This document shows positions 1 to 27,872 of a DNA stretch of 64,000 nt, piece by piece. The stretch covers positions 4,329 through 68,328 of the forward strand of contig JABHYY010000021.1 of NCBI GenBank assembly GCA_018653605.1, read 5' to 3'. Position 1 is the first letter of the stretch; the number at the start of each line of letters is the position of its first letter. The translations under genes were made by a program, and so were the position numbers. The notes under the pieces were generated by a model. That model was not told the origin of the DNA and did not search any database. It worked only from the letters and a program-made list of their open reading frames with translations. The DNA comes from an archaeon. Lineage in GTDB: Archaea; Nanobdellota; Nanobdellia; SCGC-AAA011-G17; GW2011-AR17.

Positions 1-729
1 GAAGCTTGGTCAAGAGTGATTAATAGTGCTTATATGGAAGCTAATGGAGAAAGTCTTGAAAATGAAGCATATCAAAATTTGATTTTAACAATCATGTATC
101 AAGAAGCTGGTTTGAGAAGTGAAAGAAGAGCAACACCTTTCTTGTTTGTTACTGAAGATATGATTCCAGGTATGGATAACTCATCTTTTGGTCCAATGCA
201 AGTTAAGTTGTTGAGTGATTTTGAAGGTGATCCAGAAAGCATGGAAGATATTTTAGTTTATTCAATGCAAAGATTGGACAAAGTTGTTGAAGCTTATGGT
301 GGAGAAGTTACTAATGATAATTTGCAATTCCTTTTTGGAGATTGGGTTGCAGGTGATTATGCTTGTAGAGCTGCTGCTGTACAGAACATGTTGAATAAAG
401 AATTAAGTAGAGGACTTAGCTTAGATGGAGACTTAGGTCCAATGTCCAAAGGCGCTTTGAAACAATTAAATGACCAATATAATCTAGGCATGGATAGAGA
501 AGAAATTGATAGTTTTGAAATTGGAGATAATGGTGAATTTTTTGAGAGTGAAGTTTATAGAACTTTAGTTGAAAATTTTGCTTATGTTGAAAATCCTGTT
601 TTGGTTGAAGCCCATATGACAGGAATTGAAGGAGAATTAGCTCCAGTTAGAGGAGTTCCTGGAAATTCACAAGAATATGTTTCAAGAGCTCTTGAAGCTT
701 ATGATAATATAGGAGGATTGCAAAAATGA
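1..729 (+). CDS. DUF1615/YaiW-like lysozyme-fold protein (5' truncated by window edge)
   Basis: Frame is open from base 1. Motifs QEAG, GPMQV and FGDWVAGDYACRAAAVQN..LSLDGDL parallel the YaiW motifs QES, GGPMQV and FADFNAGWYASRNAAFQN..LALDGDL as I recall them. Confidence 0.75.
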   Translation, partial: EAWSRVINSAYMEANGESLENEAYQNLILTIMYQEAGLRSERRATPFLFVTEDMIPGMDNSSFGPMQVKLLSDFEGDPESMEDILVYSMQRLDKVVEAYGGEVTNDNLQFLFGDWVAGDYACRAAAVQNMLNKELSRGLSLDGDLGPMSKGALKQLNDQYNLGMDREEIDSFEIGDNGEFFESEVYRTLVENFAYVENPVLVEAHMTGIEGELAPVRGVPGNSQEYVSRALEAYDNIGGLQK

Positions 730-1088
730 AAAGGAAAATAATTGGAAGTGTAGCAGGCATAGGATTAGCAACAGCTTTAGGTTGTAGCGAAGAATCAGGA
801 ATTGGATACCATGGATTTCCTGAATTAGAAAGTGGAAATTGGGAAGTTACAGATATAAGAATCCCAACTAGAGGTAGTATCAATAATGTTTGGAGATTGG
901 AAGATAAAACATATTCTGTTACATTAAAACAAAATGGAGACCTGAATATTTCTGGACAGTATAAATATGAAATTAGAGAGAGTTATGACTTGATTCCTGA
1001 TGGCCGAGTGTTAGAAGGTGAAGAAAAACAAAGTTTTTGGGTTGATGAAAGACATGGAACTGTTACTCTAAGAGAGGTTGAAGAATGA
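726..1088 (+). CDS. putative lipoprotein
   Basis: MKRK plus hydrophobic stretch plus ALGC lipobox-like Cys; ATGA overlap with the upstream gene. Confidence 0.6.
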   Translation: MKRKIIGSVAGIGLATALGCSEESGIGYHGFPELESGNWEVTDIRIPTRGSINNVWRLEDKTYSVTLKQNGDLNISGQYKYEIRESYDLIPDGRVLEGEEKQSFWVDERHGTVTLREVEE

Positions 1089-1828
1089 AAGGGAGATATA
1101 TTTTAGGATTAGCAACTGTAGGTTTAGTTGGTTTAATTGGTGCTTTAAGTACACCTGTTTATAGAGACCATAACCCTAGTTATTATGCTATCACTGATAA
1201 TAGAGAAGAAGGAAGTAATTTACAAGCTGGTGAAAAAGATTATGATGTTTGGATACAGCAAGGTACTGTTGATGAAATTAGATCTCAATTTAAGTTTGAT
1301 TATAGATTAAAAAATGGTGAATCAGCGTTAAAACCTAATCGAAGAAGAGAATCAAATGTTACTGAAGAAGACATTATTAATTTTACTGTTGATTATATTG
1401 GAGACAAATTAAACTTTAGATGGCCAGTTTTATTTCCACAACCTATTGTTGATGGAATTAGAAAAGCCCCATTTGGTATGAGTGTAATGCCTAAGAAACA
1501 AAATGAATATTTTCAAAACACAACTCAAATTGATGTTGAAGGCGAGTGGGATATTCTAACTGATTGTTGGGATTATAGTCAGTTGTTCAAAAATGCGTTT
1601 AATGTTTTAGCACAGGATTATGGTGTTGAAGCTGAGGCTTTCAGAGTGACTGGTGACACTTATTTTAATTTGTTTGGTTTGGACAAAAAAGTAGGAGATC
1701 ATGATTTTAATTTAGTTATTGATTCTGAAGGGAATCATATCTATATTGATACAAATGGTCCAGATACACTTTGGATTACTAATCCACCAAATATTACTGA
1801 TAAAGTTGTTGTGAGGGAAGAAAAATGA
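1085..1828 (+). CDS. exported transglutaminase-like (Cys-His-Asp) protein
   Basis: N-terminal signal/anchor; DCWDYS...GDHDFN...YIDT matches the spacing of the transglutaminase-like triad. Confidence 0.6.
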   Translation: MKGRYILGLATVGLVGLIGALSTPVYRDHNPSYYAITDNREEGSNLQAGEKDYDVWIQQGTVDEIRSQFKFDYRLKNGESALKPNRRRESNVTEEDIINFTVDYIGDKLNFRWPVLFPQPIVDGIRKAPFGMSVMPKKQNEYFQNTTQIDVEGEWDILTDCWDYSQLFKNAFNVLAQDYGVEAEAFRVTGDTYFNLFGLDKKVGDHDFNLVIDSEGNHIYIDTNGPDTLWITNPPNITDKVVVREEK

Positions 1829-2181
1829 AAGCAATTGCAACAGGATTAGTTGGTGCTGTTTTAAGTTTGAGTAATGTTTGTGAACAACCAGAAACAATTG
1901 AAGAAACTGTAGAAGAATGTCCAAGAATTGAAGGACCAAGAGTTTTACAAGTTGGTCAAATTGGGGACTATTCTTTTGTTAATGAGAATTGTGAAACCCC
2001 TTTTGCTGAAGAAGGAGAGATCCCAGCAGGAGTTTGGTTACTTTATACACCAAATTTTTTATCACCTGAAGACAAAGACAATAACCAATATACAATAAGT
2101 TTAGGTTTTAATGAACCTGGAAGTTATGAATTAACATTCAAAGGTGATTTTACTACAATAACAATTGAGGTTGAAGAATGA
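1825..2181 (+). CDS. exported hypothetical protein (beta-rich)
   Basis: Hydrophobic N-terminus; acidic beta-rich body; ATGA overlaps on both sides. Confidence 0.6.
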   Translation: MKAIATGLVGAVLSLSNVCEQPETIEETVEECPRIEGPRVLQVGQIGDYSFVNENCETPFAEEGEIPAGVWLLYTPNFLSPEDKDNNQYTISLGFNEPGSYELTFKGDFTTITIEVEE

Positions 2182-2504
2182 GCAAAGATATAATTTATAT
2201 GACTTGTTTGTTGGCAACCACTGTAGCAACTTTAGGTCTTTTTGCTTGGAATTCAAGAGGTTATGTTGGTGAAGTTGCAGAAGATTTAGTTCCATTTGAA
2301 GAAGAGTTTAGCCAAGAGTGTGAACAAAAAACTGTGAATACTCTTTATGATGGTTCTTTAGATGCAATTGTTGATAGAAGAGATGAGTTTTTAGAGAGTC
2401 GAAATGTTCGAACTAATTGTGAAAAATGGGTTTGTTCAAAAAATTATCCTGATGGCTATAAAATGCTTATTACAAATAGTAGGAGTTGTCGAGGAGAAAA
2501 ATAA
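2178..2504 (+). CDS. membrane-anchored hypothetical protein
   Basis: One N-terminal hydrophobic helix, several Cys, ATGA-coupled start. Confidence 0.6.
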   Translation: MSKDIIYMTCLLATTVATLGLFAWNSRGYVGEVAEDLVPFEEEFSQECEQKTVNTLYDGSLDAIVDRRDEFLESRNVRTNCEKWVCSKNYPDGYKMLITNSRSCRGEK

Positions 2505-2506
2505 AA

Positions 2507-3139
2507 ATGAATCAATATTTCGAAAGAGCAGATGATTTTTTGACTAAACATTTACTTCCTGGTATCAAAAGAAGAAGAGAATACTTAGAAAGAGTGTTGG
2601 ACAGACATAGAGAATATTTGTCTTATGCTATATTTGCTGAAGATGCTGATGGAGTAAAGAAAATTAATGAAAAATATGTTGATTTTAATTTTCCATTAAG
2701 ATGTTATGTTGAAGCTAAGCAAGGAGAGATTGAATATTCTTTTCCTGTTAATCAAGAAAATATTACAACCCCAGAACAACAAAGGTTTGTTGATGAAGCT
2801 CAAGCAAGTGCCAATAGCAAATATTGTACAAATTGGACTAAAAATGCTAAAAGATGTGAAGAAACAGATGATTTGGTTTTAAGATTTTTAGCTGGTCATT
2901 TACTATCAGAAGTTGCTGCTAGATCTCTTTCTGGAGAAAACCTTATTGGGGATTTTAAAGTTCCTAGTTTAGAAGATCTGCAAAGTACTGAATCTTTAGA
3001 TGAATTGTTTGACCCAGCTAATAGCTTTCTAAGAATTTCTCAGAAATTAAGAGCTCGTTACATTGACTTAGCTAGTAGAGATAATCTGTTTGGTGCTTGG
3101 AAATTAAATGAAGCTATTCATGAGAAATATTCTCAATAA
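2507..3139 (+). CDS. hypothetical protein
   Basis: Long ORF; ATG at 2507, 2 nt after the upstream stop, preferred over the ORF-track start at 2486. Confidence 0.6.
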   Translation: MNQYFERADDFLTKHLLPGIKRRREYLERVLDRHREYLSYAIFAEDADGVKKINEKYVDFNFPLRCYVEAKQGEIEYSFPVNQENITTPEQQRFVDEAQASANSKYCTNWTKNAKRCEETDDLVLRFLAGHLLSEVAARSLSGENLIGDFKVPSLEDLQSTESLDELFDPANSFLRISQKLRARYIDLASRDNLFGAWKLNEAIHEKYSQ

Positions 3140-4277
3140 GATAGACCTTATCATTCTCTCTTACTTTTTTTTCTGTTTTTATTCCTACTAAGCATTTAGA
3201 AGCTTTATCCACCTGTTTGTGATTAATTTGTAATTCTTTAACTTCTTGTTTTATTACACCTGTTTTGTTTCCAACAAACATTATTTGATCTTTTAATTTG
3301 AGATCTTTGTATAATTGAATTGCTGCAACACCGTGTTCTTTGTAGAAGTTTATTACTTTACCAATTTGGATTTTTTTTGTTTTTGAAATATTGCCTTCAG
3401 ATTCAGTAAACTCATTGAATGGTTTTCCTAGGTAAAAGCCTGAATGGAAGCCTCTGTTGTATGCTGTTTTTAGTTCTTCTAATAGTGCATTCTTATTCTC
3501 TTCTGTAAATTCATTATTTTTTATTAGTGTAAGTGCTTTTTTGTATGTTCTGACTACAGTGTCAACATACTCAGGAGTTTTTGCTCTACCTTCGATCTTT
3601 ATACAGTCTACAAACTGTAGTTGGTCTAGGAAAGGTAGTGTGCACAGATCTTTTGGTGACATTATGTAACCTTGTCCTAACTTTAATTCTTTGTTTTCTT
3701 CTGTGTCTGTAATTTTGTATTCTCTTCTACAAGGTTGTATGCATTTTCCTCTGTTTGCACTTCTTTGAAATAAGTGTTGTGATAGGAAACATCTGCCTGA
3801 ATATGAAACACACATTGCACCATGGCAAAAAACTTCTATCTCTATGTTAGAATCTTTTATTTTTTTTATCTGGTTTATGTTGAGTTCTCTTGCAAGGATT
3901 ACTCTTTCAACACCTAGTTCTTTGTATTGTTCTATTGCCTTTAAATTAGCAACTGAAGCTTGTGTTGATAAGTGAACTGGGATTTCTAATTCTTTTGCAA
4001 TTTTTATAACTGCTAAGTCCCAACATATTACTGCGTCAATGTGGTCTTTTAGTTCTGTTAAAACTTCTTTTACCCTGTCCAACTCTTCATCATAAATTAT
4101 TGTGTTGATTGTTAGGTATTTTTTTATTTCTGGAAATGCTTTTACTTCTTCTATTGTAAAGTTTTTTGCAGAATCTCGCATGTTAAATTCTTTGATTCCA
4201 AAATATATTGAATCTGCTCCTGCATTGATTGCAGCTTGAAGCATTGCTTGATCTCCTACTGGTGCTAGTATTTCCAT
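3114..4277 (-). CDS. U32 family protein (TrhP/RlhA-like RNA hydroxylase family)
   Basis: MEILAPVG start; AGADSIYFG, HLSTQASV and FCHGAMCVSYSGRC..SANRGKCIQPCRR Fe-S cysteines; KIEGR. Confidence 0.9.
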   Translation of the reverse strand: MEILAPVGDQAMLQAAINAGADSIYFGIKEFNMRDSAKNFTIEEVKAFPEIKKYLTINTIIYDEELDRVKEVLTELKDHIDAVICWDLAVIKIAKELEIPVHLSTQASVANLKAIEQYKELGVERVILARELNINQIKKIKDSNIEIEVFCHGAMCVSYSGRCFLSQHLFQRSANRGKCIQPCRREYKITDTEENKELKLGQGYIMSPKDLCTLPFLDQLQFVDCIKIEGRAKTPEYVDTVVRTYKKALTLIKNNEFTEENKNALLEELKTAYNRGFHSGFYLGKPFNEFTESEGNISKTKKIQIGKVINFYKEHGVAAIQLYKDLKLKDQIMFVGNKTGVIKQEVKELQINHKQVDKASKCLVGIKTEKKVRENDKVYLIENISHE

Positions 4278-4329
4278 AGTTAAAATTTTATAGATAAAAC
4301 TTATAAACCTGTTGTTTTGTGGTGAATTT

Positions 4330-5562
4330 ATGGATGGGAGATTAGAAGAGTTAGTTCGAAAACAGTATAGATACATAGTTCCAGATTTAGCTGAAGAAAC
4401 ATACGATAGGTTAATTGAGTTTATGAATTCTAATACTGAACTGAATAGTGTGAGTATTGTAACACTTAAAGCCCTAACAAAAGTAGGAAAACAGCTCTGT
4501 AGGTCTTATGGAGAAAAAGTTGAAGATGCTTTTTGGGAGAACTTATATGACTATAATGCTTATGGTGCAAGAGTTCTTACTGATAAAAGTATGCCCGAAC
4601 ACGAATCTAAAATAAAACAAGTTAAAGGCGTAAAACCCAATTATCTTGCTTCTCATTTTTGGATGAATGCTTCAGATTCTGCATTTGAACTCTATAGAAA
4701 AGCAAACAAAAGAAGAGATACAAAAAAGAAAGAAAAGCATAGGACTATATTTATGAGTGCTGGATTAAATGCATTGAGTCTATTGCTCAATGCAGATGAT
4801 GATAATTACTTTGACCCAATATTGAGAAACTGCAAGGAACTTCGGAGAAGGGCTTTATATTGTTTTAATTTTGGAGGAGACATAAGGGGTGCAGAGATGG
4901 ATTATCAACTTGTTCTTGCTGAAGCTGAAGTTTATGACCATATGGGAGAGTTTGAATCAACCAGAACAAATCCAAGTTCAGAAAAAATAAGAGAATTAGA
5001 GTTAACTAGACTTGAGGCACTTGAAGCTGCAGCAAAAAAAGCCTATGTTGTGTATTCTTCTACAAAAAGATCTGAAAAAGGGAAATGGTTTGATAGAGTT
5101 GTAGATTCTGTTACTGAAGCTTCTTTAGAATATCTTGAATTAGAAAAAGTAGATGAAGCTTTTGCTGTTGCTGGAAAATTAGGTATGGGGAATGAGTTTG
5201 CTGCAACCTCTGATCCATACCCTAATGAAAAAGCTGCAGACCTTTGGTTGAAAATGGCAGAGAAGCTTGAAGATATTGATCTGGAAAAAATGGTTGAAGC
5301 TACTGAAAAGGCTGCTATCACTACTACCATTATGTATTTCTCTCCAGTGATTGCAAAAAGAAAAAAAATAAATTATATTGAAAAAGCTATAGGGTTAAGA
5401 AAAATAGCTTTACAGCAAGCTTTAGATTTGGGATTAGATCCTAAACCAAGAATAAATTCACTTTTAGTTCATTACCAGCATGCTTGCGATGATAAACCAA
5501 GGAATGCTAGAAAGTACCAAGGAGAAATTGCAAAATATCAAGCAATGATGGCTGAACTTTAA
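4330..5562 (+). CDS. hypothetical all-helical protein
   Basis: ORF of about 410 aa; GGTGA Shine-Dalgarno before ATG 4330; Ala/Leu/Glu-rich helical pattern. Confidence 0.65.
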   Translation: MDGRLEELVRKQYRYIVPDLAEETYDRLIEFMNSNTELNSVSIVTLKALTKVGKQLCRSYGEKVEDAFWENLYDYNAYGARVLTDKSMPEHESKIKQVKGVKPNYLASHFWMNASDSAFELYRKANKRRDTKKKEKHRTIFMSAGLNALSLLLNADDDNYFDPILRNCKELRRRALYCFNFGGDIRGAEMDYQLVLAEAEVYDHMGEFESTRTNPSSEKIRELELTRLEALEAAAKKAYVVYSSTKRSEKGKWFDRVVDSVTEASLEYLELEKVDEAFAVAGKLGMGNEFAATSDPYPNEKAADLWLKMAEKLEDIDLEKMVEATEKAAITTTIMYFSPVIAKRKKINYIEKAIGLRKIALQQALDLGLDPKPRINSLLVHYQHACDDKPRNARKYQGEIAKYQAMMAEL

Positions 5563-5563
5563 A

Positions 5564-6712
5564 TTATTCTTCTTTTTTTACCTTGCCAAAAGCCAGTGCA
5601 GCATAAACTAATATAGAGTGACCACCAGTTTGTAAAGTGTTTCCTTCTTTATCAACACGAGGAGATGTTGGTGACCAACCATACCTTATTCCAAAAGGGA
5701 CTAACCCACCTATTTTTGAATTAAAAGAAAGGCCTACATTAGGTAACACATTTGTATCAAATGTTTGTGAACCTTCAACTTGATTATCGCCAAGAAGAGT
5801 TAAAACTCCAACTTCTGGCCTTAAGTGATAATGTTTTGCTATTAGAAAGCCTAATGAAAGGTTGGCTTGAGCCCATGTAGAGTGTCTAAATTCATCATAA
5901 TATGTCCCAGGTGCAGCTCCTTGACTATTCATAAAACCTCCTTGGTACAATGCATTAAAAATATCAACACTTTGTTGTGTTCCAAACCTGCCTTGAAGAT
6001 GTAAGTTTAAAACTTTTCCTTGAAAATAAACTCCTGCCATCATTAGCAATTTTAAAGAATGTTCCTTATCATCAAATCCATCAATGTTTGATTTAAATCC
6101 AGGTCTGTGTGCATATTCTCCAAATCCACTAATTTCAAAACCCTCTTTTCTTTGTAATAGAACATCTTGTTCAAGATCTGAAATATCTGCTTCTAAAGTT
6201 AATTGTTGTTCAAAATGATTACTAGGAAAATTTGTTTCTGGTTTTGAAGGAAAACCATACACTTTTGCATAAGGTGAGTACATTAAACTTAACTCCAAAT
6301 GTTCTGCTGGTGCTATTGAAGAGAATACTTCTACTCCTAATTCATTTGCTTGGACTTCTCTTTCTTCTGCACTAGATCCATCTTGATTAAAGTCTAAGTA
6401 ATTTCCTTGAATAATATATCTCACAAAAGGTCTAACTCCAAAATCAACTTCTCCTCTTCTTAAAAATTCAACTGATAAACCTGAAGTACTTATTGACCCT
6501 AAAAAATCCCAAGAAGGATCAGCAGGAAATCTACTATATACTTGAACCTGAGCAAGAGGTATTGTACTTCCTTGACCAACTAAAGATGTTTCCATACCAC
6601 CAAAAATGCTTACATGATATTCATTTCTGGGTTCTGGATTTTCTTCAGCCTTTGCAACAGACCCTAATAATAATGTTGCTAGGGCTGCTCCACCTAATAA
6701 ATTACGAATCAT
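5564..6712 (-). CDS. signal-peptide protein with predicted outer-membrane-type beta-barrel (Omp85/TamA-like, tentative)
   Basis: Signal peptide ending AKA; about 15-16 amphipathic beta-strand segments; last strand VYAALAF. CDS is secure, fold is inferred. Confidence 0.55.
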   Translation of the reverse strand: MIRNLLGGAALATLLLGSVAKAEENPEPRNEYHVSIFGGMETSLVGQGSTIPLAQVQVYSRFPADPSWDFLGSISTSGLSVEFLRRGEVDFGVRPFVRYIIQGNYLDFNQDGSSAEEREVQANELGVEVFSSIAPAEHLELSLMYSPYAKVYGFPSKPETNFPSNHFEQQLTLEADISDLEQDVLLQRKEGFEISGFGEYAHRPGFKSNIDGFDDKEHSLKLLMMAGVYFQGKVLNLHLQGRFGTQQSVDIFNALYQGGFMNSQGAAPGTYYDEFRHSTWAQANLSLGFLIAKHYHLRPEVGVLTLLGDNQVEGSQTFDTNVLPNVGLSFNSKIGGLVPFGIRYGWSPTSPRVDKEGNTLQTGGHSILVYAALAFGKVKKEE

Positions 6713-6748
6713 ATAAAAAAAGAATAAAAGTTAAGTTTAAAACAATTT

Positions 6749-7843
6749 CTATGATAAAATCTGTTTGAAAACCATACCTTTCATGTTTTTTACCATGTAC
6801 TCTTGTGCTTTTTTTGTGGTCTCACCATTTGTTAAGAAAATCAGAGGTAATTTTTCATTTTGTGCTTCTGTGAATGCTAGCAAAAGTTCACCTTCGTTTA
6901 ATTTTTTCTTGTTTTTTGCTTTAACCATGTAAGCTAAGTTTCCAATATCTGTTGGAATTTTTACTAAGAAATTAATTTCTCTGTTCTTTCTTATTACTAC
7001 TATATTTTCTATGTTAACATTGTTTTTATTCAAATAAGCAATTACTGTTTTTGCAAAATCATCTTGTACTTGTTGAGGAGGTAGTGTTACTTGTTTTGGT
7101 TCTTCTTTAGGTTCTTCCTTAGGTTCTTCCTTAGGTTCTTCCTTAGGTTCTTCCTTAGGTTCTTCCTTAGGTTCTTCCTTAGGTTCTTCCTTAGGTTCTT
7201 CCTTAGGTTCTTCCTTAGGTTCTTCTTTAGGTTCTTCCTTAGGTTCTTCTTTAGGTTCTTCCTTTGGTTCTTCCTTAGGTTCTTCCTTAGGTTCTTCCTT
7301 AGCTGGCTGAGGCAGTTCTTGTTGTTTTGGTTCCTCAGCCTTTGGTTCCTCTGTAACAGGAGTCACTGGTTTATCTTCACCATACAATCTTTGTAAAATT
7401 TCTTCAATTAATTCTTTTGCTTCATCATCGTCAACTAAGTACCATTTCCAAAAAGTTTCAAGATTACCCTTTATTTGTAAAGGAAGAGGTTTTGCAAAGT
7501 CAGGTATTTCTTTTAGTGCTACTCTTATTGCTGGTTCTTGATCTCTTTCCCTTAAAACTTTATTCTCTTGTAACAAGTCAAATGCTCTCTTTGGAAATTC
7601 TTTCAAATGGTCCCTTAACATTGTTGCTAGCTTAGGTTCTTGGCCAGCTGCATAGTACAAAGGTGATCCACCAACTTTTGCCTTTGAAATTTTGAGTTGT
7701 TTTCCAGAAGTTAGTTCTGATAGTAGAGCTGAAATGAAAAGTGTGCTAGTTCCAACATTTTGTTTAACTTTAACTGGCAAAATGGGGCCTGCTCTCTTTA
7801 CATAACTCAATACTTGCTCTTTTAATTGGAGAACTTTGTTCAT
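6749..7843 (-). CDS. hypothetical protein: N-terminal wHTH-like region, EEPK linker, C-terminal PD-(D/E)xK-like domain
   Basis: 364-aa ORF; the C-terminal EINFLV..YMVKAK segment resembles a degenerate restriction-endonuclease-like fold. Confidence 0.6.
   Translation of the reverse strand: MNKVLQLKEQVLSYVKRAGPILPVKVKQNVGTSTLFISALLSELTSGKQLKISKAKVGGSPLYYAAGQEPKLATMLRDHLKEFPKRAFDLLQENKVLRERDQEPAIRVALKEIPDFAKPLPLQIKGNLETFWKWYLVDDDEAKELIEEILQRLYGEDKPVTPVTEEPKAEEPKQQELPQPAKEEPKEEPKEEPKEEPKEEPKEEPKEEPKEEPKEEPKEEPKEEPKEEPKEEPKEEPKEEPKEEPKEEPKQVTLPPQQVQDDFAKTVIAYLNKNNVNIENIVVIRKNREINFLVKIPTDIGNLAYMVKAKNKKKLNEGELLLAFTEAQNEKLPLIFLTNGETTKKAQEYMVKNMKGMVFKQILS
7094..7297 (-). repeat. 12-bp coding tandem repeat x17 (EEPK)
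   Basis: Unit cttaggttcttc on + strand, 17 consecutive units with only synonymous variants. Confidence 0.97.
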
Positions 7844-7897
7844 TAGAAGTTTGTTGTTTTTTAGATTTTTAAGCTTTTAGATAGAAAAAGATAGGGT

Positions 7898-8458
7898 TTA
7901 AGGTTTAGTCCAAGAGACGCTGTAGTAAGTCACATCTCCTTCGTCGTCAACAACACCAATAAGTAATTTTTTTCTTGTAGAATGAGCTACTCTGTTTTTT
8001 GCTGAGAAATTGTACCAAGTTTCCATTTCTGTTTCTAATACAGGATATAAAATCCATTTTGCATGATCTTCTCCAGGCTTGACTCCTCTGTCATACACTC
8101 TAAAATCTGCTCCAAACTTAAGTGCTGTTTTTACAATATAACCCCTGTTTCTCATGTCTTTGTAAACATTATATCTTGTCCAGAAGTTAGGTTCTAATTT
8201 TCTTGCTTTTTTTAGATATTTGTCAAGATTAAGGATTGTTCTGCCTGAAATAACTTGCATTTTTCCTCTTTCAATCAGGTAAAGTGCTTCAACTAAAGAG
8301 TATTGGAACTTGTCCTTGTGGAATGGTTCGCCCAATCTTGACTTTTCATAAAGTTCTCTAGCTAGATCGCAAGATCCTGCAATAACTTTCTCATTTGAAA
8401 AGATACCTTGAATTGGTTCTCTCACTTCTTCATGGACTTGTTTTTTCTTCTTTACCAT
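7898..8458 (-). CDS. endA: tRNA-intron endonuclease, catalytic subunit
   Basis: YSLVEALYL, YKDMRNRGYIVKTALKFGADFRVY and HAKW..RVAHSTRK carry the Tyr/His/Lys catalytic motifs. Confidence 0.93.
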   Translation of the reverse strand: MVKKKKQVHEEVREPIQGIFSNEKVIAGSCDLARELYEKSRLGEPFHKDKFQYSLVEALYLIERGKMQVISGRTILNLDKYLKKARKLEPNFWTRYNVYKDMRNRGYIVKTALKFGADFRVYDRGVKPGEDHAKWILYPVLETEMETWYNFSAKNRVAHSTRKKLLIGVVDDEGDVTYYSVSWTKP

Positions 8459-8509
8459 AAACTATAGATTCCAAAAGCTATATAAAAAGCTTTTCCTTTC
8501 TAAAATTCT

Positions 8510-9403
8510 ATGGAAATCACATTTTTGGGTACAACTTCAATGGTGCCAACAAAAGACAGGAACCATAGTGCAATCCTGTTGGCATTTAAGGATGAAAAGA
8601 TCTTGATAGACTGTGGAGAAGGTACTCAAAGACAGCTTAGGATGGCTAAGATTGCAGCTCCTAGGATCACTAAGATCTTGATTACTCATTGGCATGGTGA
8701 TCATGTGTTAGGTTTGCCTGGGTTGATGCAGACTTTGATTGCAAATGATTATAATAAAGATTTGGAGATTTATGTGCCTGAAGGTACTAAAGATAATTTC
8801 AAGAAAATGTTTGGGTTTTTTGTTTTAAGAGGCGATACAATTAGGCACAAAGTTATTGAAGTTCCTGAAGGTAAGTTTTTTGAAAGTGAGGATTTTGAGT
8901 TGCATGCTTTCAAAGTTGATCATACCTCAAGCAGTGTGGGTTATGTGTTTAAGGAAAAGGATAGGAAAAGGATTAATCTGCAGTACTTGAAAAAGTTTGG
9001 TTTGAAACAGAATCCTATTTTGAAAAAGTTGCAACAAGGTAAAGATATTGTTTGGGAAGGTAAGAAGATTAAAGTTAAAGATGCAACTGTTCCTGTTAAA
9101 GGGAAGAAGATTAGTTTTGTTTTGGATACTAAATATTTTGCAGGGTTAGTTAAGCCAGTTAAAGATTCTGATATCTTGATTGCTGAGTCTACTTATTTAG
9201 ATGATATGAAAAAGGTTGCTGTTGAAAGGAAGCATATGACTGCTCAGCAAGCTGGTTCTTTGGCTAAAAAGGCTAAGGTTTCAGAGTTGTACTTGACTCA
9301 TTTTTCTCAAAGGTATCAAGATTTGAAACTGTTTTTGGATGAAGCTAGAAAAGAGTTTAAGAATGTTAAAGTTGCTAGAGATTTTCTAAAAGTTCGTGTT
9401 TGA
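8510..9403 (+). CDS. rnz: ribonuclease Z
   Basis: FLGT..P, DCGEGTQRQ, THWHGDH, ESTY and HFSQRY motifs. Confidence 0.95.
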   Translation: MEITFLGTTSMVPTKDRNHSAILLAFKDEKILIDCGEGTQRQLRMAKIAAPRITKILITHWHGDHVLGLPGLMQTLIANDYNKDLEIYVPEGTKDNFKKMFGFFVLRGDTIRHKVIEVPEGKFFESEDFELHAFKVDHTSSSVGYVFKEKDRKRINLQYLKKFGLKQNPILKKLQQGKDIVWEGKKIKVKDATVPVKGKKISFVLDTKYFAGLVKPVKDSDILIAESTYLDDMKKVAVERKHMTAQQAGSLAKKAKVSELYLTHFSQRYQDLKLFLDEARKEFKNVKVARDFLKVRV

Positions 9404-9686
9404 TTTCCATATAAGTTGCAAAAGCTTGTTCATATAAACCATTTTGTGCATACAAAGGTTCTAATTGTTCTTTTTTGACTTCATGTGCTTTGTCATGCAA
9501 GCCATGATCACATAATAAATCTGCTCTATATAACAGAGAAATAATTTTTATCTTCCTTACAATCCTATCTGCTAAAAGTTCTTTTGAGGCTACTAAATTA
9601 TCTGAAGGCATAAGTACCCTTTTAATCTTAGGTTCTGCATTTTTTAGAGCCATTTCAATACCTTCTAATATTGCTTCTTCTCTCAT
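9375..9686 (-). CDS. hypothetical protein
   Basis: 103-aa ORF with AT-rich upstream region. Confidence 0.55.
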   Translation of the reverse strand: MREEAILEGIEMALKNAEPKIKRVLMPSDNLVASKELLADRIVRKIKIISLLYRADLLCDHGLHDKAHEVKKEQLEPLYAQNGLYEQAFATYMEIKHELLENL

Positions 9687-27325: not shown

Positions 27326-27528
27326 TGAAACTAATGACTTTTAAAATATCTGAAAGTTTACTTGAAGAGATGGATAAGATTAGCAAAGAACATCATTTCT
27401 CAAATAGAACAGAATTTATTAGAAATGCTATTCGAGAAAAGATTGAAAGGTGTAAAACTGTTAATTACATTTCAAAGCATAAACCAAAGATAAAAAAGAA
27501 AAAAGAAATAATAGATTATACAGGTTAA
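27325..27528 (+). CDS. CopG/NikR-like ribbon-helix-helix protein
   Basis: MKLMTFKISESLLEEMD...NRTEFIRNAIRE pattern. Confidence 0.85.
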   Translation: MKLMTFKISESLLEEMDKISKEHHFSNRTEFIRNAIREKIERCKTVNYISKHKPKIKKKKEIIDYTG

Positions 27529-27872
27529 TCTTCCCAGTCAACAAAGTCGAAGATAAATGGCCTACAACTTCCAAGGCTTCTAATCTGGAATTGAATTAAT
27601 TGTTCTTGTCCAACTTCATAGCCAGTAAGTCCTGTATCGTGTGTAAAATTCATGTCACTATACATTTCATATACAGCTAATTGGTTTTCATCTCCAATTA
27701 AACTTTCCTTTTCAAAAGTAAAATGGACTTCTGTTCCATCAACTTCAGTGACTGTTATTGTTGCAGTGTAAATATCTGGATAGTATTCGCAAGGTCCACC
27801 TATTGTACCACTATCACAACCAGAGACTAATACTGCGATTAGTAGTCCAAGTATTAAAATTGTGTATTTCAT
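27525..27872 (-). CDS. lipoprotein
   Basis: MKY plus hydrophobic stretch plus LVSGC lipobox. Confidence 0.75.
   Translation of the reverse strand: MKYTILILGLLIAVLVSGCDSGTIGGPCEYYPDIYTATITVTEVDGTEVHFTFEKESLIGDENQLAVYEMYSDMNFTHDTGLTGYEVGQEQLIQFQIRSLGSCRPFIFDFVDWED

What the first reader, a model, noticed from the sequence alone, without database searches (positions are those of the whole stretch)
5564..6712. Bacterial outer-membrane-type beta-barrel candidate in an archaeon
Seen: cleavable signal peptide, then about 15-16 short alternating hydrophobic/polar strands (EYHVSIFGG, LAQVQVYSRF, VDFGVRPFVRY, LGVEVFSSI, FEISGFGEYAH, LNLHLQGRFG, WAQANLSLGF, PFGIRYGW, SILVYAALAF). A late loop GAAPGTYYDEFR recalls the Omp85 loop-6 RGY/F region. 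Known: such barrels normally need an outer membrane and BAM. Inference: a horizontally acquired barrel that is repurposed, inserted into a bacterial partner's membrane, or a sign of an unusual envelope. Flanking genes are archaeal.
Basis: partly seen in the sequence, partly recalled or inferred. Interest (0 to 1): 0.8.

Follow-up and report, generated by a model that had tools for sequence, protein, structure and literature searches.

The report
Outer-membrane-type beta-barrel in marine archaeon
A small marine archaeon natively encodes an exported protein that is confidently predicted to fold into a 16-stranded membrane barrel of the kind known only from the outer membranes of Gram-negative bacteria and organelles. 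Several other archaea carry relatives, so it is unclear which membrane the protein sits in and how it gets there.

Summary
Window 5564-6712 (minus strand) is a 382-aa ORF with a signal peptide. AlphaFold2 (pLDDT 87.6, pTM 0.84) predicts 16 antiparallel strands with short turns on one side and long loops on the other.

**Fold.** The best matches are all Omp85-type 16-strand barrels (BamA, TamA, CdiB, Sam50; Foldseek E about 1e-10, TM about 0.57). There is no POTRA domain, no VRGF/Y motif and no detectable sequence homology to Omp85 or to any Pfam, NCBIfam or PDB entry.

**Not contamination.**
- Contigs from independent metagenomes are identical across the gene and its neighbours.
- Codon usage is native.
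- The promoter looks archaeal.

**Family.** It is small: 31 clusters among 1.84 billion representative proteins. It splits cleanly (support 100/100) into two clades:
- a bacterial clade, mostly Spirochaetota;
- a 12-member archaeal-context clade. Three of its lineages lie on contigs with archaeal marker genes.

This points to one old inter-domain transfer.

The longest and most conserved loop sits where Omp85 loop 6 sits.

**Open.** The membrane it occupies (the archaeon's own outer layer or a partner's) and its function (channel or insertase) are untested. I could not search the genome for BAM-type genes.

The parts
5564..6712 (-). Complete ORF (382 aa plus stop) for the exported barrel protein
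   Evidence: Family HMM score 419 bits; it is the only hit in the window.
6647..6712 (-). Signal peptide, residues 1-22 (MIRNLLGGAALATLLLGSVAKA); predicted cleavage after AKA
   Evidence: Read from the sequence. pLDDT is below 50 only for residues 1-22. Homologs have equivalent N-termini.
5582..6619 (-). Predicted 16-stranded beta-barrel, residues 32-377
   Evidence: AlphaFold2 pLDDT 87.6, pTM 0.84, 16 strands. Foldseek finds BamA/TamA barrels at E about 1e-10, TM 0.56-0.58. Strand faces differ in hydrophobicity. Turns are 2-6 aa and loops reach 31 aa.
5879..5971 (-). Loop between b11 and b12 (residues 248-278, 'L6'): longest and most conserved loop. D250, G258 and G269 are invariant; N253, A254, P268 and E274 are nearly invariant.
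   Evidence: pLDDT is 89-97 over this block.
5582..5623 (-). Last strand GHSILVYAALAFGK (beta-signal-like, aromatic F375), followed by the charged tail VKKEE
   Evidence: Several homologs end exactly at the equivalent Phe.
6735..6742 (-). TATA-like box TTTTAAAC, 23-30 nt upstream of the ATG; no Shine-Dalgarno sequence. Suggests an archaeal-type promoter with a leaderless or short-leader mRNA.
   Evidence: All archaeal-clade loci examined except L034 have an A/T box at the same distance, whereas most bacterial members show GGAGG-type sites. This is inference from sequence.

Best explanation
The gene encodes a Sec-exported, monomeric 16-stranded transmembrane beta-barrel of bacterial outer-membrane type. 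It belongs to a small, unannotated family whose barrel geometry is closest to the Omp85 superfamily (BamA, TamA, TpsB, Sam50). It has no POTRA domains and no detectable Omp85 sequence signature.

The family has two deep clades. One is in diderm bacteria, mostly Spirochaetota. The other is in archaea. The archaeal clade most likely stems from one ancient inter-domain transfer followed by inheritance within archaea. In this genome the gene is native and has archaeal expression signals.

Inferred mechanism:
1. The signal peptide takes the protein across the cytoplasmic membrane.
2. The barrel folds into a lipid layer outside that membrane, with its termini and short turns facing the cell and its long loops facing outward.
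3. The structured, invariant loop between b11 and b12, together with conserved b13/L7, forms the functional core. This would be a gated or partly plugged channel, or a lateral-gate or translocase function like that of Omp85.

Which membrane receives the barrel is not shown. It could be an unrecognised outer layer of the archaeon or the outer membrane of a bacterial partner.
For: **Real ORF in a real archaeal genome**
- EndA, split RpoB and RpoA' lie on the same window.
- A 10.8-kb Logan contig from another study covers 3000-7127 with 0 differences. Depth is equal on both sides of the only assembly break, which is a KEEP repeat inside the neighbouring gene.
- The gene is identical in contigs from 8 runs.
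- Codon usage and GC3 are like the core genes.
- A TATA-like box lies at -23 to -30 and there is no Shine-Dalgarno sequence.

**Fold**
- The window protein models at pLDDT 87.6, pTM 0.84 with 16 strands.
- An independent model of the Desulfobotulus homolog, from a bacteria-only alignment, gives pLDDT 88.0 and 16 strands.
- For the window model the top 50 PDB fold matches are all Omp85-type barrels. For the bacterial model nearly all are, with lower-TM FadL, TodX and Wzi hits among them.
- Strand faces differ in hydrophobicity, weakly in four strands. Turns are 2-6 aa on one side and loops are up to 31 aa on the other.

**Family**
- An exhaustive phmmer search found 31 clusters.
- The scan found 22 loci in named bacterial genome records, 20 of them Spirochaetota.
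- Archaeal markers lie on the same contigs as homologs: an archaeal CCA-adding enzyme and RqcH on a 1.47-Mb contig, and L44e, aIF2-alpha, Nop10 and Cdc6 on a 126-kb contig.
- The tree splits the archaeal-context clade from the bacterial clade with 100/100 support.
Against: - There is no experimental or transcript evidence. RNA runs from the same study hold none of the gene's words.
- I could not inspect model coordinates. Barrel closure and the thickness of the hydrophobic belt are inferred from the alignments to solved barrels and from pTM.
- The alignments used for folding are shallow (24 and 21 sequences).
- Archaea are not known to have BAM or a lipid outer membrane that carries beta-barrels. 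I could not search the genome for such genes because the genome search was shut.
- The last aromatic residue is followed by 7 residues, so the C-terminus is not a canonical terminal-Phe beta-signal.
- Four of the 12 members of the archaeal-context clade have no taxonomic evidence.
- For the window's sister group (L002-L005) the archaeal origin rests only on promoter-like boxes, synteny with an archaeal contig and an NcsA-type gene.
Confidence: 0.75

Rival explanations
1. The barrel sits in an outer lipid layer of the archaeon itself. The cell would be a diderm-type DPANN, and the barrel would be its porin or channel.
For: The gene is native and expressed from an archaeal-type promoter. It has been kept in several archaeal lineages with all family invariants. 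It has the canonical outer-membrane-protein topology, with termini on the cell side. Earlier unchecked notes of this scan report other barrel types in related archaea. Double membranes exist in some archaea such as Ignicoccus (PMC6349945).
Against: No beta-barrel protein is known from any archaeal outer membrane. No lipid-transport or insertase genes were seen in the 64-kb window. The family is rare (about 12 archaeal clusters), so it cannot be a general envelope component of the group.
Confidence: 0.3
2. The barrel is exported and inserted into the outer membrane of a bacterial partner or prey, acting as a conduit for nutrients or cell-wall fragments.
For: The window begins with a DUF1615/lysozyme-like gene and an operon of small secreted proteins and lipoproteins. 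Earlier unchecked notes describe peptidoglycan-cutting surface enzymes in the same genome. Bacterial relatives sit beside murein genes: DipM/NlpD-like, NagZ and MltG.
Against: Monomeric 16-strand barrels are normally inserted from the periplasmic side by BAM. No delivery device is linked to the gene. No bacterial host is known for this archaeon.
Confidence: 0.2
3. It is a true, highly diverged POTRA-less Omp85 homolog that acts as an insertase or translocase for other beta-barrel or secreted proteins.
For: The best fold matches are Omp85 barrels in two independent models. It has 16 strands. The conserved core is the b11-b12 loop plus b13/L7, the same elements that are conserved in Omp85. One family member gave a weak ShlB hit (E = 0.12).
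Against: There is no POTRA domain. There is no VRGF/Y motif. Pfam Omp85 and ShlB gave no significant hit in 24 members. The profile against PDB sequences gave no hit. hhalign against BamA and TamA gave probability below 1% (the templates were shallow). TM of about 0.57 is what any 16-strand barrel might reach. The family is too rare to be an essential machine.
Confidence: 0.12
4. It is a soluble secreted beta-rich protein (sandwich, propeller or lipocalin-like) that AlphaFold mis-models as a barrel.
For: The alignments are shallow. There is no experimental data. Hydrophobicity of the lipid-facing strand positions is moderate (mean Wimley-White 0.20).
Against: Two independent high-confidence models agree. 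All significant fold matches in the PDB and viral libraries are membrane barrels. A 16-strand barrel lumen cannot be a hydrophobic core. Loop and turn lengths are asymmetric.
Confidence: 0.06
5. It is a bacterial fragment mis-assembled or mis-binned into an archaeal contig.
For: The family also occurs in bacteria.
Against: Identical contiguous sequence is found in independent runs. The only break is at a repeat inside an in-frame gene, with equal depth on both sides. Codon usage is native. Homologs lie on other contigs that carry archaeal markers.
Confidence: 0.02

Closest known systems
Omp85 superfamily barrels (BamA, TamA, TpsB/CdiB/FhaC, Sam50)
   Same: A 16-stranded barrel. These are the best structural matches for both the archaeal and the bacterial family member (E 1e-10 to 1e-7, TM 0.52-0.59). 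The longest and most conserved loop lies between b11 and b12, the position of Omp85 L6, and the next conserved element is b13/L7.
   Different: No POTRA domain: only about 9 residues separate the signal-peptide cleavage site from b1. No VRGF/Y motif. No Pfam PF01103 or PF03865 match. No profile-profile signal to E. coli BamA or TamA. Sequence identity in the structural alignments is 10-13%.
General 16-stranded porins (OmpF/OmpC/PhoE type)
   Same: Same strand number, a signal peptide, short turns and long loops, and no cysteines.
   Different: No Porin_1 or Porin_4 Pfam match. Porins do not appear among the top 50 PDB fold matches. The conserved loop is L6, not the L3 constriction loop.
FadL/TodX hydrophobic-substrate channels
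   Same: They are outer-membrane barrels that appear among the fold matches of the bacterial homolog. In archaeal relatives the barrel gene keeps company with an adenylate-forming ligase and an alpha/beta-hydrolase, which recalls FadL-FadD logic.
   Different: FadL has 14 strands and an N-terminal hatch domain. TM is only 0.36-0.41. There is no hatch here. The ligase and hydrolase genes are absent from this window.

Membership tests
Bacterial-type outer-membrane beta-barrel (OMP) architecture | N-terminal Sec signal peptide | tested here: met
   Sequence read. Residues 1-22 are disordered in the model. The feature is conserved in the family. No dedicated signal-peptide predictor was available.
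Bacterial-type outer-membrane beta-barrel (OMP) architecture | Even number of antiparallel amphipathic strands forming a closed barrel | tested here: met
   16 strands in two independent AlphaFold2 models. Strand faces differ in hydrophobicity. Closure is inferred from alignments of about 400 columns to solved barrels; coordinates were not inspected.
Bacterial-type outer-membrane beta-barrel (OMP) architecture | Short turns on one side, long loops on the other | tested here: met
   Turns T1-T7 are 2-6 aa. Loops L3-L8 are 12-31 aa.
Bacterial-type outer-membrane beta-barrel (OMP) architecture | C-terminal beta-signal ending in an aromatic residue | tested here: inconclusive
   The last strand is ...LVYAALAF, but 7 more residues (GKVKKEE) follow. 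Some homologs end exactly at the Phe; others have similar short tails.
Bacterial-type outer-membrane beta-barrel (OMP) architecture | Host has an outer membrane and BAM-type insertion machinery | not testable with these tools
   The genome search and the fetch from genomes were shut. Nothing of the kind was seen among the window's ORFs.
Omp85 superfamily | 16-stranded C-terminal barrel | tested here: met
Omp85 superfamily | One or more N-terminal POTRA domains | tested here: not met
   The mature protein starts about 9 residues before b1. No POTRA Pfam hit.
Omp85 superfamily | Loop 6 with the VRGF/Y motif | tested here: not met
   The loop at the same position carries a different invariant pattern: D250, N253, A254, G258, P268, G269, E274.
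Omp85 superfamily | Sequence-profile match (Pfam PF01103 Omp85 or PF03865 ShlB; profile-profile match to BamA/TamA) | tested here: not met
   No hit at E <= 10 in 23 of 24 members; one ShlB hit at E = 0.12. hhalign probability is below 1%. The profile against PDB sequences gave 0 hits.
General porins (Porin_1/Porin_4) | Pfam porin profile match | tested here: not met
FadL family | 14 strands with an N-terminal hatch domain | tested here: not met
   16 strands and no N-terminal domain. TM is 0.36-0.41.

The most novel reading that the evidence does not exclude
A set of DPANN-type archaea, including this marine lineage, possess a second lipid membrane, either their own or one shared with a host. 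This membrane would be populated by bacterial-type beta-barrels. The 16-stranded, POTRA-less, Omp85-shaped protein would be the barrel-only insertase or translocase of that system, that is, an archaeal counterpart of BamA or Sam50 derived from an ancient exchange with spirochaete-like bacteria.
Probability: 0.1. Interest if true: 0.95.

Novelty: new variant of a known kind. Interest (0 to 1): 0.72.

Why it matters
Transmembrane beta-barrels of this type are treated as a hallmark of the outer membranes of diderm bacteria, mitochondria and plastids. Their assembly is thought to need an Omp85 machine.

This is a conserved archaeal clade of such barrels, on contigs with archaeal markers and archaeal-type promoters. 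That implies one of three things:
- an unrecognised outer membrane in some small archaea;
- a barrel that inserts without known machinery;
- a pore delivered into another organism's membrane.

Each possibility would change how the envelopes and host interactions of DPANN archaea are viewed. The protein is small, lacks cysteines and can be expressed, so the question can be tested directly. My full-text searches found no paper describing this family, and none describing Omp85-like barrels in archaea. The only related published remark I found is a possible distant PopA relative in Altiarchaeales (PMC12228718).

Tried and rejected
**Family and homolog searches that found nothing useful**
- Pfam, NCBIfam and PHROGs on the protein: no hit.
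- Pfam on all 24 aligned members at E <= 10: nothing significant.
- phmmer and profile hmmsearch against PDB sequences: nothing.
- The word-indexed homolog search found no relatives with the single sequence. With the profile it found one, which was already in the query alignment. Only the exhaustive search worked.
With the close-relative alignment it found nothing.
- The metagenome-contig scan gave only a 110-aa fragment, L037.

**Omp85 test**
- I fetched E. coli BamA and TamA and ran hhalign: no signal.
- My last homolog search returned only enterobacterial BamA, so the Omp85 profile stayed shallow.

**Other dead ends**
- Transcript evidence: RNA runs from the same study hold none of the gene's words.
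- Population variation for a selection test: the gene is identical in all runs laid, so there was nothing to count.
- The viral fold library gave only generic phage-encoded porin-like barrels.
- I could not search the archaeal genomes for BAM, Lol, Lpt or Tam genes (tools shut).
- Accession numbers of the two archaeal assemblies appear in no paper of the library, so I did not establish their phyla.

**Readings rejected**
- Misassembly, recent island and soluble-protein readings are rejected for the reasons given under the rival explanations.

Full report
**1. The observation**

Window 5564-6712 holds, on the minus strand, a 382-aa ORF.
- The N-terminus MIRNLLGGAALATLLLGSVAKA/EENPEP reads as a Sec signal peptide with an A-x-A cleavage site.
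- The protein has no cysteine and is rich in Gly, Ser, Leu and aromatic residues.
- The flanking genes are archaeal: tRNA-splicing endonuclease EndA at 7898-8458 and RNase Z at 8510-9403, and further along a split RpoB, RpoA', AlaRS, CysRS and SMC.

**2. Not an artefact, not a recent island**

*Assembly.* The region is present in at least 20 marine or seawater metagenome runs from many studies.
- A 10.8-kb contig from one run covers 3000-7127 without a single difference. This span takes in the U32 peptidase gene, the 416-aa neighbour, the barrel gene and the 3' half of the upstream gene.
- Other runs give the same result in pieces.
- The only break in all runs is at 7127-7273. That is the roughly 20-fold KEEP repeat inside the in-frame upstream gene. 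Assembler depth is equal on both sides of it.
- Four more runs again show zero differences in the gene.

*Composition and signals.*
- GC (0.346), GC3 (0.138) and synonymous codon choice match the core genes of the window. Composition along the window is flat.
- The 36-nt spacer upstream holds TTTTAAAC at -30 to -23 from the ATG and no Shine-Dalgarno sequence. From general knowledge of archaeal promoters, this fits a TATA box and a leaderless or short-leader mRNA.

**3. The family**

No Pfam, NCBIfam, PHROG or PDB-sequence match exists. The exhaustive phmmer search of 1.84 billion representatives found 31 clusters, 26 of them at E <= 1e-10. The full-length hits (about 22 of them) are 370-430 aa and 23-39% identical; the rest are fragments or truncated. 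All aligned members have signal peptides.

*Bacterial branch.* A pattern scan of species-representative genomes with the distal branch returned 22 loci in named genome records: 20 Spirochaetota (several of them Leptospirales), one Desulfobotulus alkaliphilus and one Bacteroidales MAG.

*Archaeal branch.* The closer relatives lie elsewhere.
- P0007 and P0012 lie on syntenic contigs. One contig is 1.47 Mb and also carries an archaeal-type CCA-adding enzyme and archaeal RqcH.
- P0010 lies on a 126-kb contig with L44e, aIF2-alpha, Nop10 and Orc1/Cdc6.
- The window's nearest relatives (P0003-P0006, 35-39% identity) are on low-GC contigs that are syntenic with each other. These contigs share two neighbouring genes with the P0010 archaeal contig.

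*Tree.* A maximum-likelihood tree of 48 sequences separates a 12-member clade from a 36-member clade with 100/100 support.
- The 12-member clade holds every archaeal-context sequence and four sequences of unknown context.
- The 36-member clade holds all the sequences from the named bacterial records.

*Expression signals.* Upstream regions agree with the split. All archaeal-clade loci examined except L034 have an A/T box at about -24 to -33 and no Shine-Dalgarno sequence. Most bacterial members show GGAGG-type sites.

*Reading.* One old inter-domain transfer was followed by inheritance among archaea. The direction is most plausibly bacteria to archaea, because the bacterial clade is larger, has tandem paralogs and belongs to diderm cells. 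The tree is unrooted, so the direction is inference.

**4. Structure**

*Window protein.* AlphaFold2 with the 24-sequence alignment gives pLDDT 87.6 and pTM 0.84. Only the signal peptide is disordered. There are 16 strands.

*Bacterial homolog.* An independent model of the Desulfobotulus homolog, made from a bacteria-only alignment, gives pLDDT 88.0, pTM 0.83 and again 16 strands.

*Fold matches.*
- Against the PDB, the top 50 matches for the window model are all Omp85-superfamily barrels: BamA, TamA, CdiB and Sam50 (E down to 1.6e-10, TM 0.48-0.58, 10-13% identity).
- For the bacterial model nearly all the top matches are Omp85 barrels too, at TM 0.49-0.59. FadL, TodX and Wzi appear among them only at TM 0.33-0.41.
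- The viral structure library returns only porin-like barrels.

*Outer-membrane-protein features.*
- Averaged over the family, every strand has one more hydrophobic and one more polar face. The contrast is weak in b2, b8, b10 and b16.
- Connections on one side are 2-6 residues. On the other side they are up to 31 residues. This is the classic asymmetry of outer-membrane proteins.
- The longest loop (residues 248-278, between b11 and b12) is also the most conserved element. It holds 8 of the 31 family positions that are at least 80% conserved, including invariant D250, G258 and G269 and nearly invariant N253, A254, P268 and E274. It is modelled with pLDDT 89-97, so it is structured.
- The next most conserved elements are b13 and L7.

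I could not obtain coordinates. Barrel closure and the position of this loop in the lumen are therefore inferred.

**5. Comparison with known families**

The protein works like, and looks like, an Omp85-type barrel: 16 strands, best fold matches, and a conserved core at the L6 position plus b13. Membership is not supported, for four reasons:
- there is no POTRA domain;
- there is no VRGF/Y motif;
- Pfam Omp85 and ShlB give no significant hit in 24 members, the best being one ShlB hit at E = 0.12;
- profile-profile alignment to E. coli BamA and TamA gives no signal (the templates were shallow because one search returned only enterobacterial BamA).

The family is also not a Porin_1, Porin_4 or FadL member. 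I file it as an unannotated outer-membrane beta-barrel family with Omp85-like geometry.

**6. Context and function**

*In bacteria.* The gene sits among envelope genes.
- In 10 Spirochaetota loci a LysM-M23 protein of DipM/NlpD type and a TPR protein lie downstream.
- In Desulfobotulus, NagZ and MltG lie beside it.

*In archaea.* Two archaeal subclades keep the barrel next to a cytoplasmic alpha/beta-hydrolase and a PaaK/F390-synthetase-like ligase. This window does not.

*In this window.*
- The barrel gene follows a 364-aa repeat protein on the same strand and converges on a 416-aa helical protein. Neither is informative.
- The window starts with a DUF1615/lysozyme-like ORF followed by five overlapping small ORFs with signal or lipobox N-termini.
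- Earlier unchecked notes of this scan report peptidoglycan-acting surface enzymes elsewhere in this genome, and other kinds of outer-membrane-type barrels in other Woesearchaeota-like genomes. I treat these as leads only.

**7. Mechanism and rival readings**

*Shown by computation:* an exported 16-strand barrel with outer-membrane-protein topology, native to an archaeon, and a member of a family shared between bacteria and archaea.

*Inferred:*
1. After Sec export, the barrel folds into a lipid layer outside the cytoplasmic membrane, with both termini on the cell side.
2. The structured b11-b12 loop, with b13/L7, forms the functional core. This would be a gated or partly plugged channel, or an Omp85-like gate.

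*Unknown:* the receiving membrane. My rough odds are:

| Reading | Odds |
|---|---|
| Own outer layer | 0.3 |
| Bacterial partner's outer membrane | 0.2 |
| Omp85-like insertase or translocase role | 0.12 |
| Soluble protein mis-modelled as a barrel | 0.06 |
| Misassembly | 0.02 |

The first three readings are not mutually exclusive. The rarity of the family argues against an essential, general envelope role.

**8. Novelty**

My full-text searches found no paper describing this family or Omp85-like barrels in DPANN archaea. The only related published remark I found is a possible distant PopA relative in Altiarchaeales (PMC12228718). I rate this as a new variant of a known kind: the known kind is the bacterial outer-membrane barrel, and the variant is a deep archaeal clade in cells not known to have the membrane or the machinery.

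**9. Limits**

- There is no transcript or protein evidence.
- There was no whole-genome search for assembly machinery (tools shut).
- I did not establish the phylum of the window or of the other archaeal contigs.
- The alignments used for folding are shallow.

Noticed in passing
window 1-3139 (+): A DUF1615-like ORF (Pfam E 2.9e-8, runs off the window start) is followed by five small ORFs that overlap by a few bases. Four of them have signal-peptide, lipobox or membrane-anchor N-termini (for example LATALGC at 726-1088). It looks like an operon of secreted envelope-acting proteins in an archaeon.
   Followed up: partly
window 6749-7843 (-): A 364-aa protein directly upstream of the barrel gene, on the same strand. 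It contains about 20 tandem (K/P)EEP repeats and a weak C-terminal Mrr_cat-like match (E 0.077). The repeat is the only place where independent assemblies break (7127-7273).
   Followed up: partly
L002:840-4669, L003:4015-7765, L005:6719-11242, L032:8687-12743: In two archaeal subclades the barrel gene stays adjacent to a cytoplasmic alpha/beta-hydrolase (about 42% identical between the subclades) and a PaaK/F390-synthetase-like adenylate-forming enzyme (about 30% identical), although orientations differ. This may be a functional module, for example uptake and activation of an acid or lipid. The two neighbours have no counterpart in this window.
   Followed up: partly
L013-L026 (Spirochaetota loci) and L019:7267-9754: Bacterial family members are followed by a LysM-M23 (DipM/NlpD-like) gene and a TPR gene in 10 loci. 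Tandem paralogs of the barrel occur in L013, L015 and L017. In Desulfobotulus alkaliphilus the neighbours are NagZ and MltG.
   Followed up: partly
window 27525-27872 (-): A 115-aa ORF with a textbook lipobox N-terminus (LLIAVLVSGC). It is one more putative lipoprotein in this archaeal window.
   Followed up: no
window 3000-9500: Contigs from eight metagenome runs of different studies match this stretch with essentially no differences. The only difference (C>T at 7142) lies inside the repeat. This suggests a very uniform and widely distributed marine population.
   Followed up: partly
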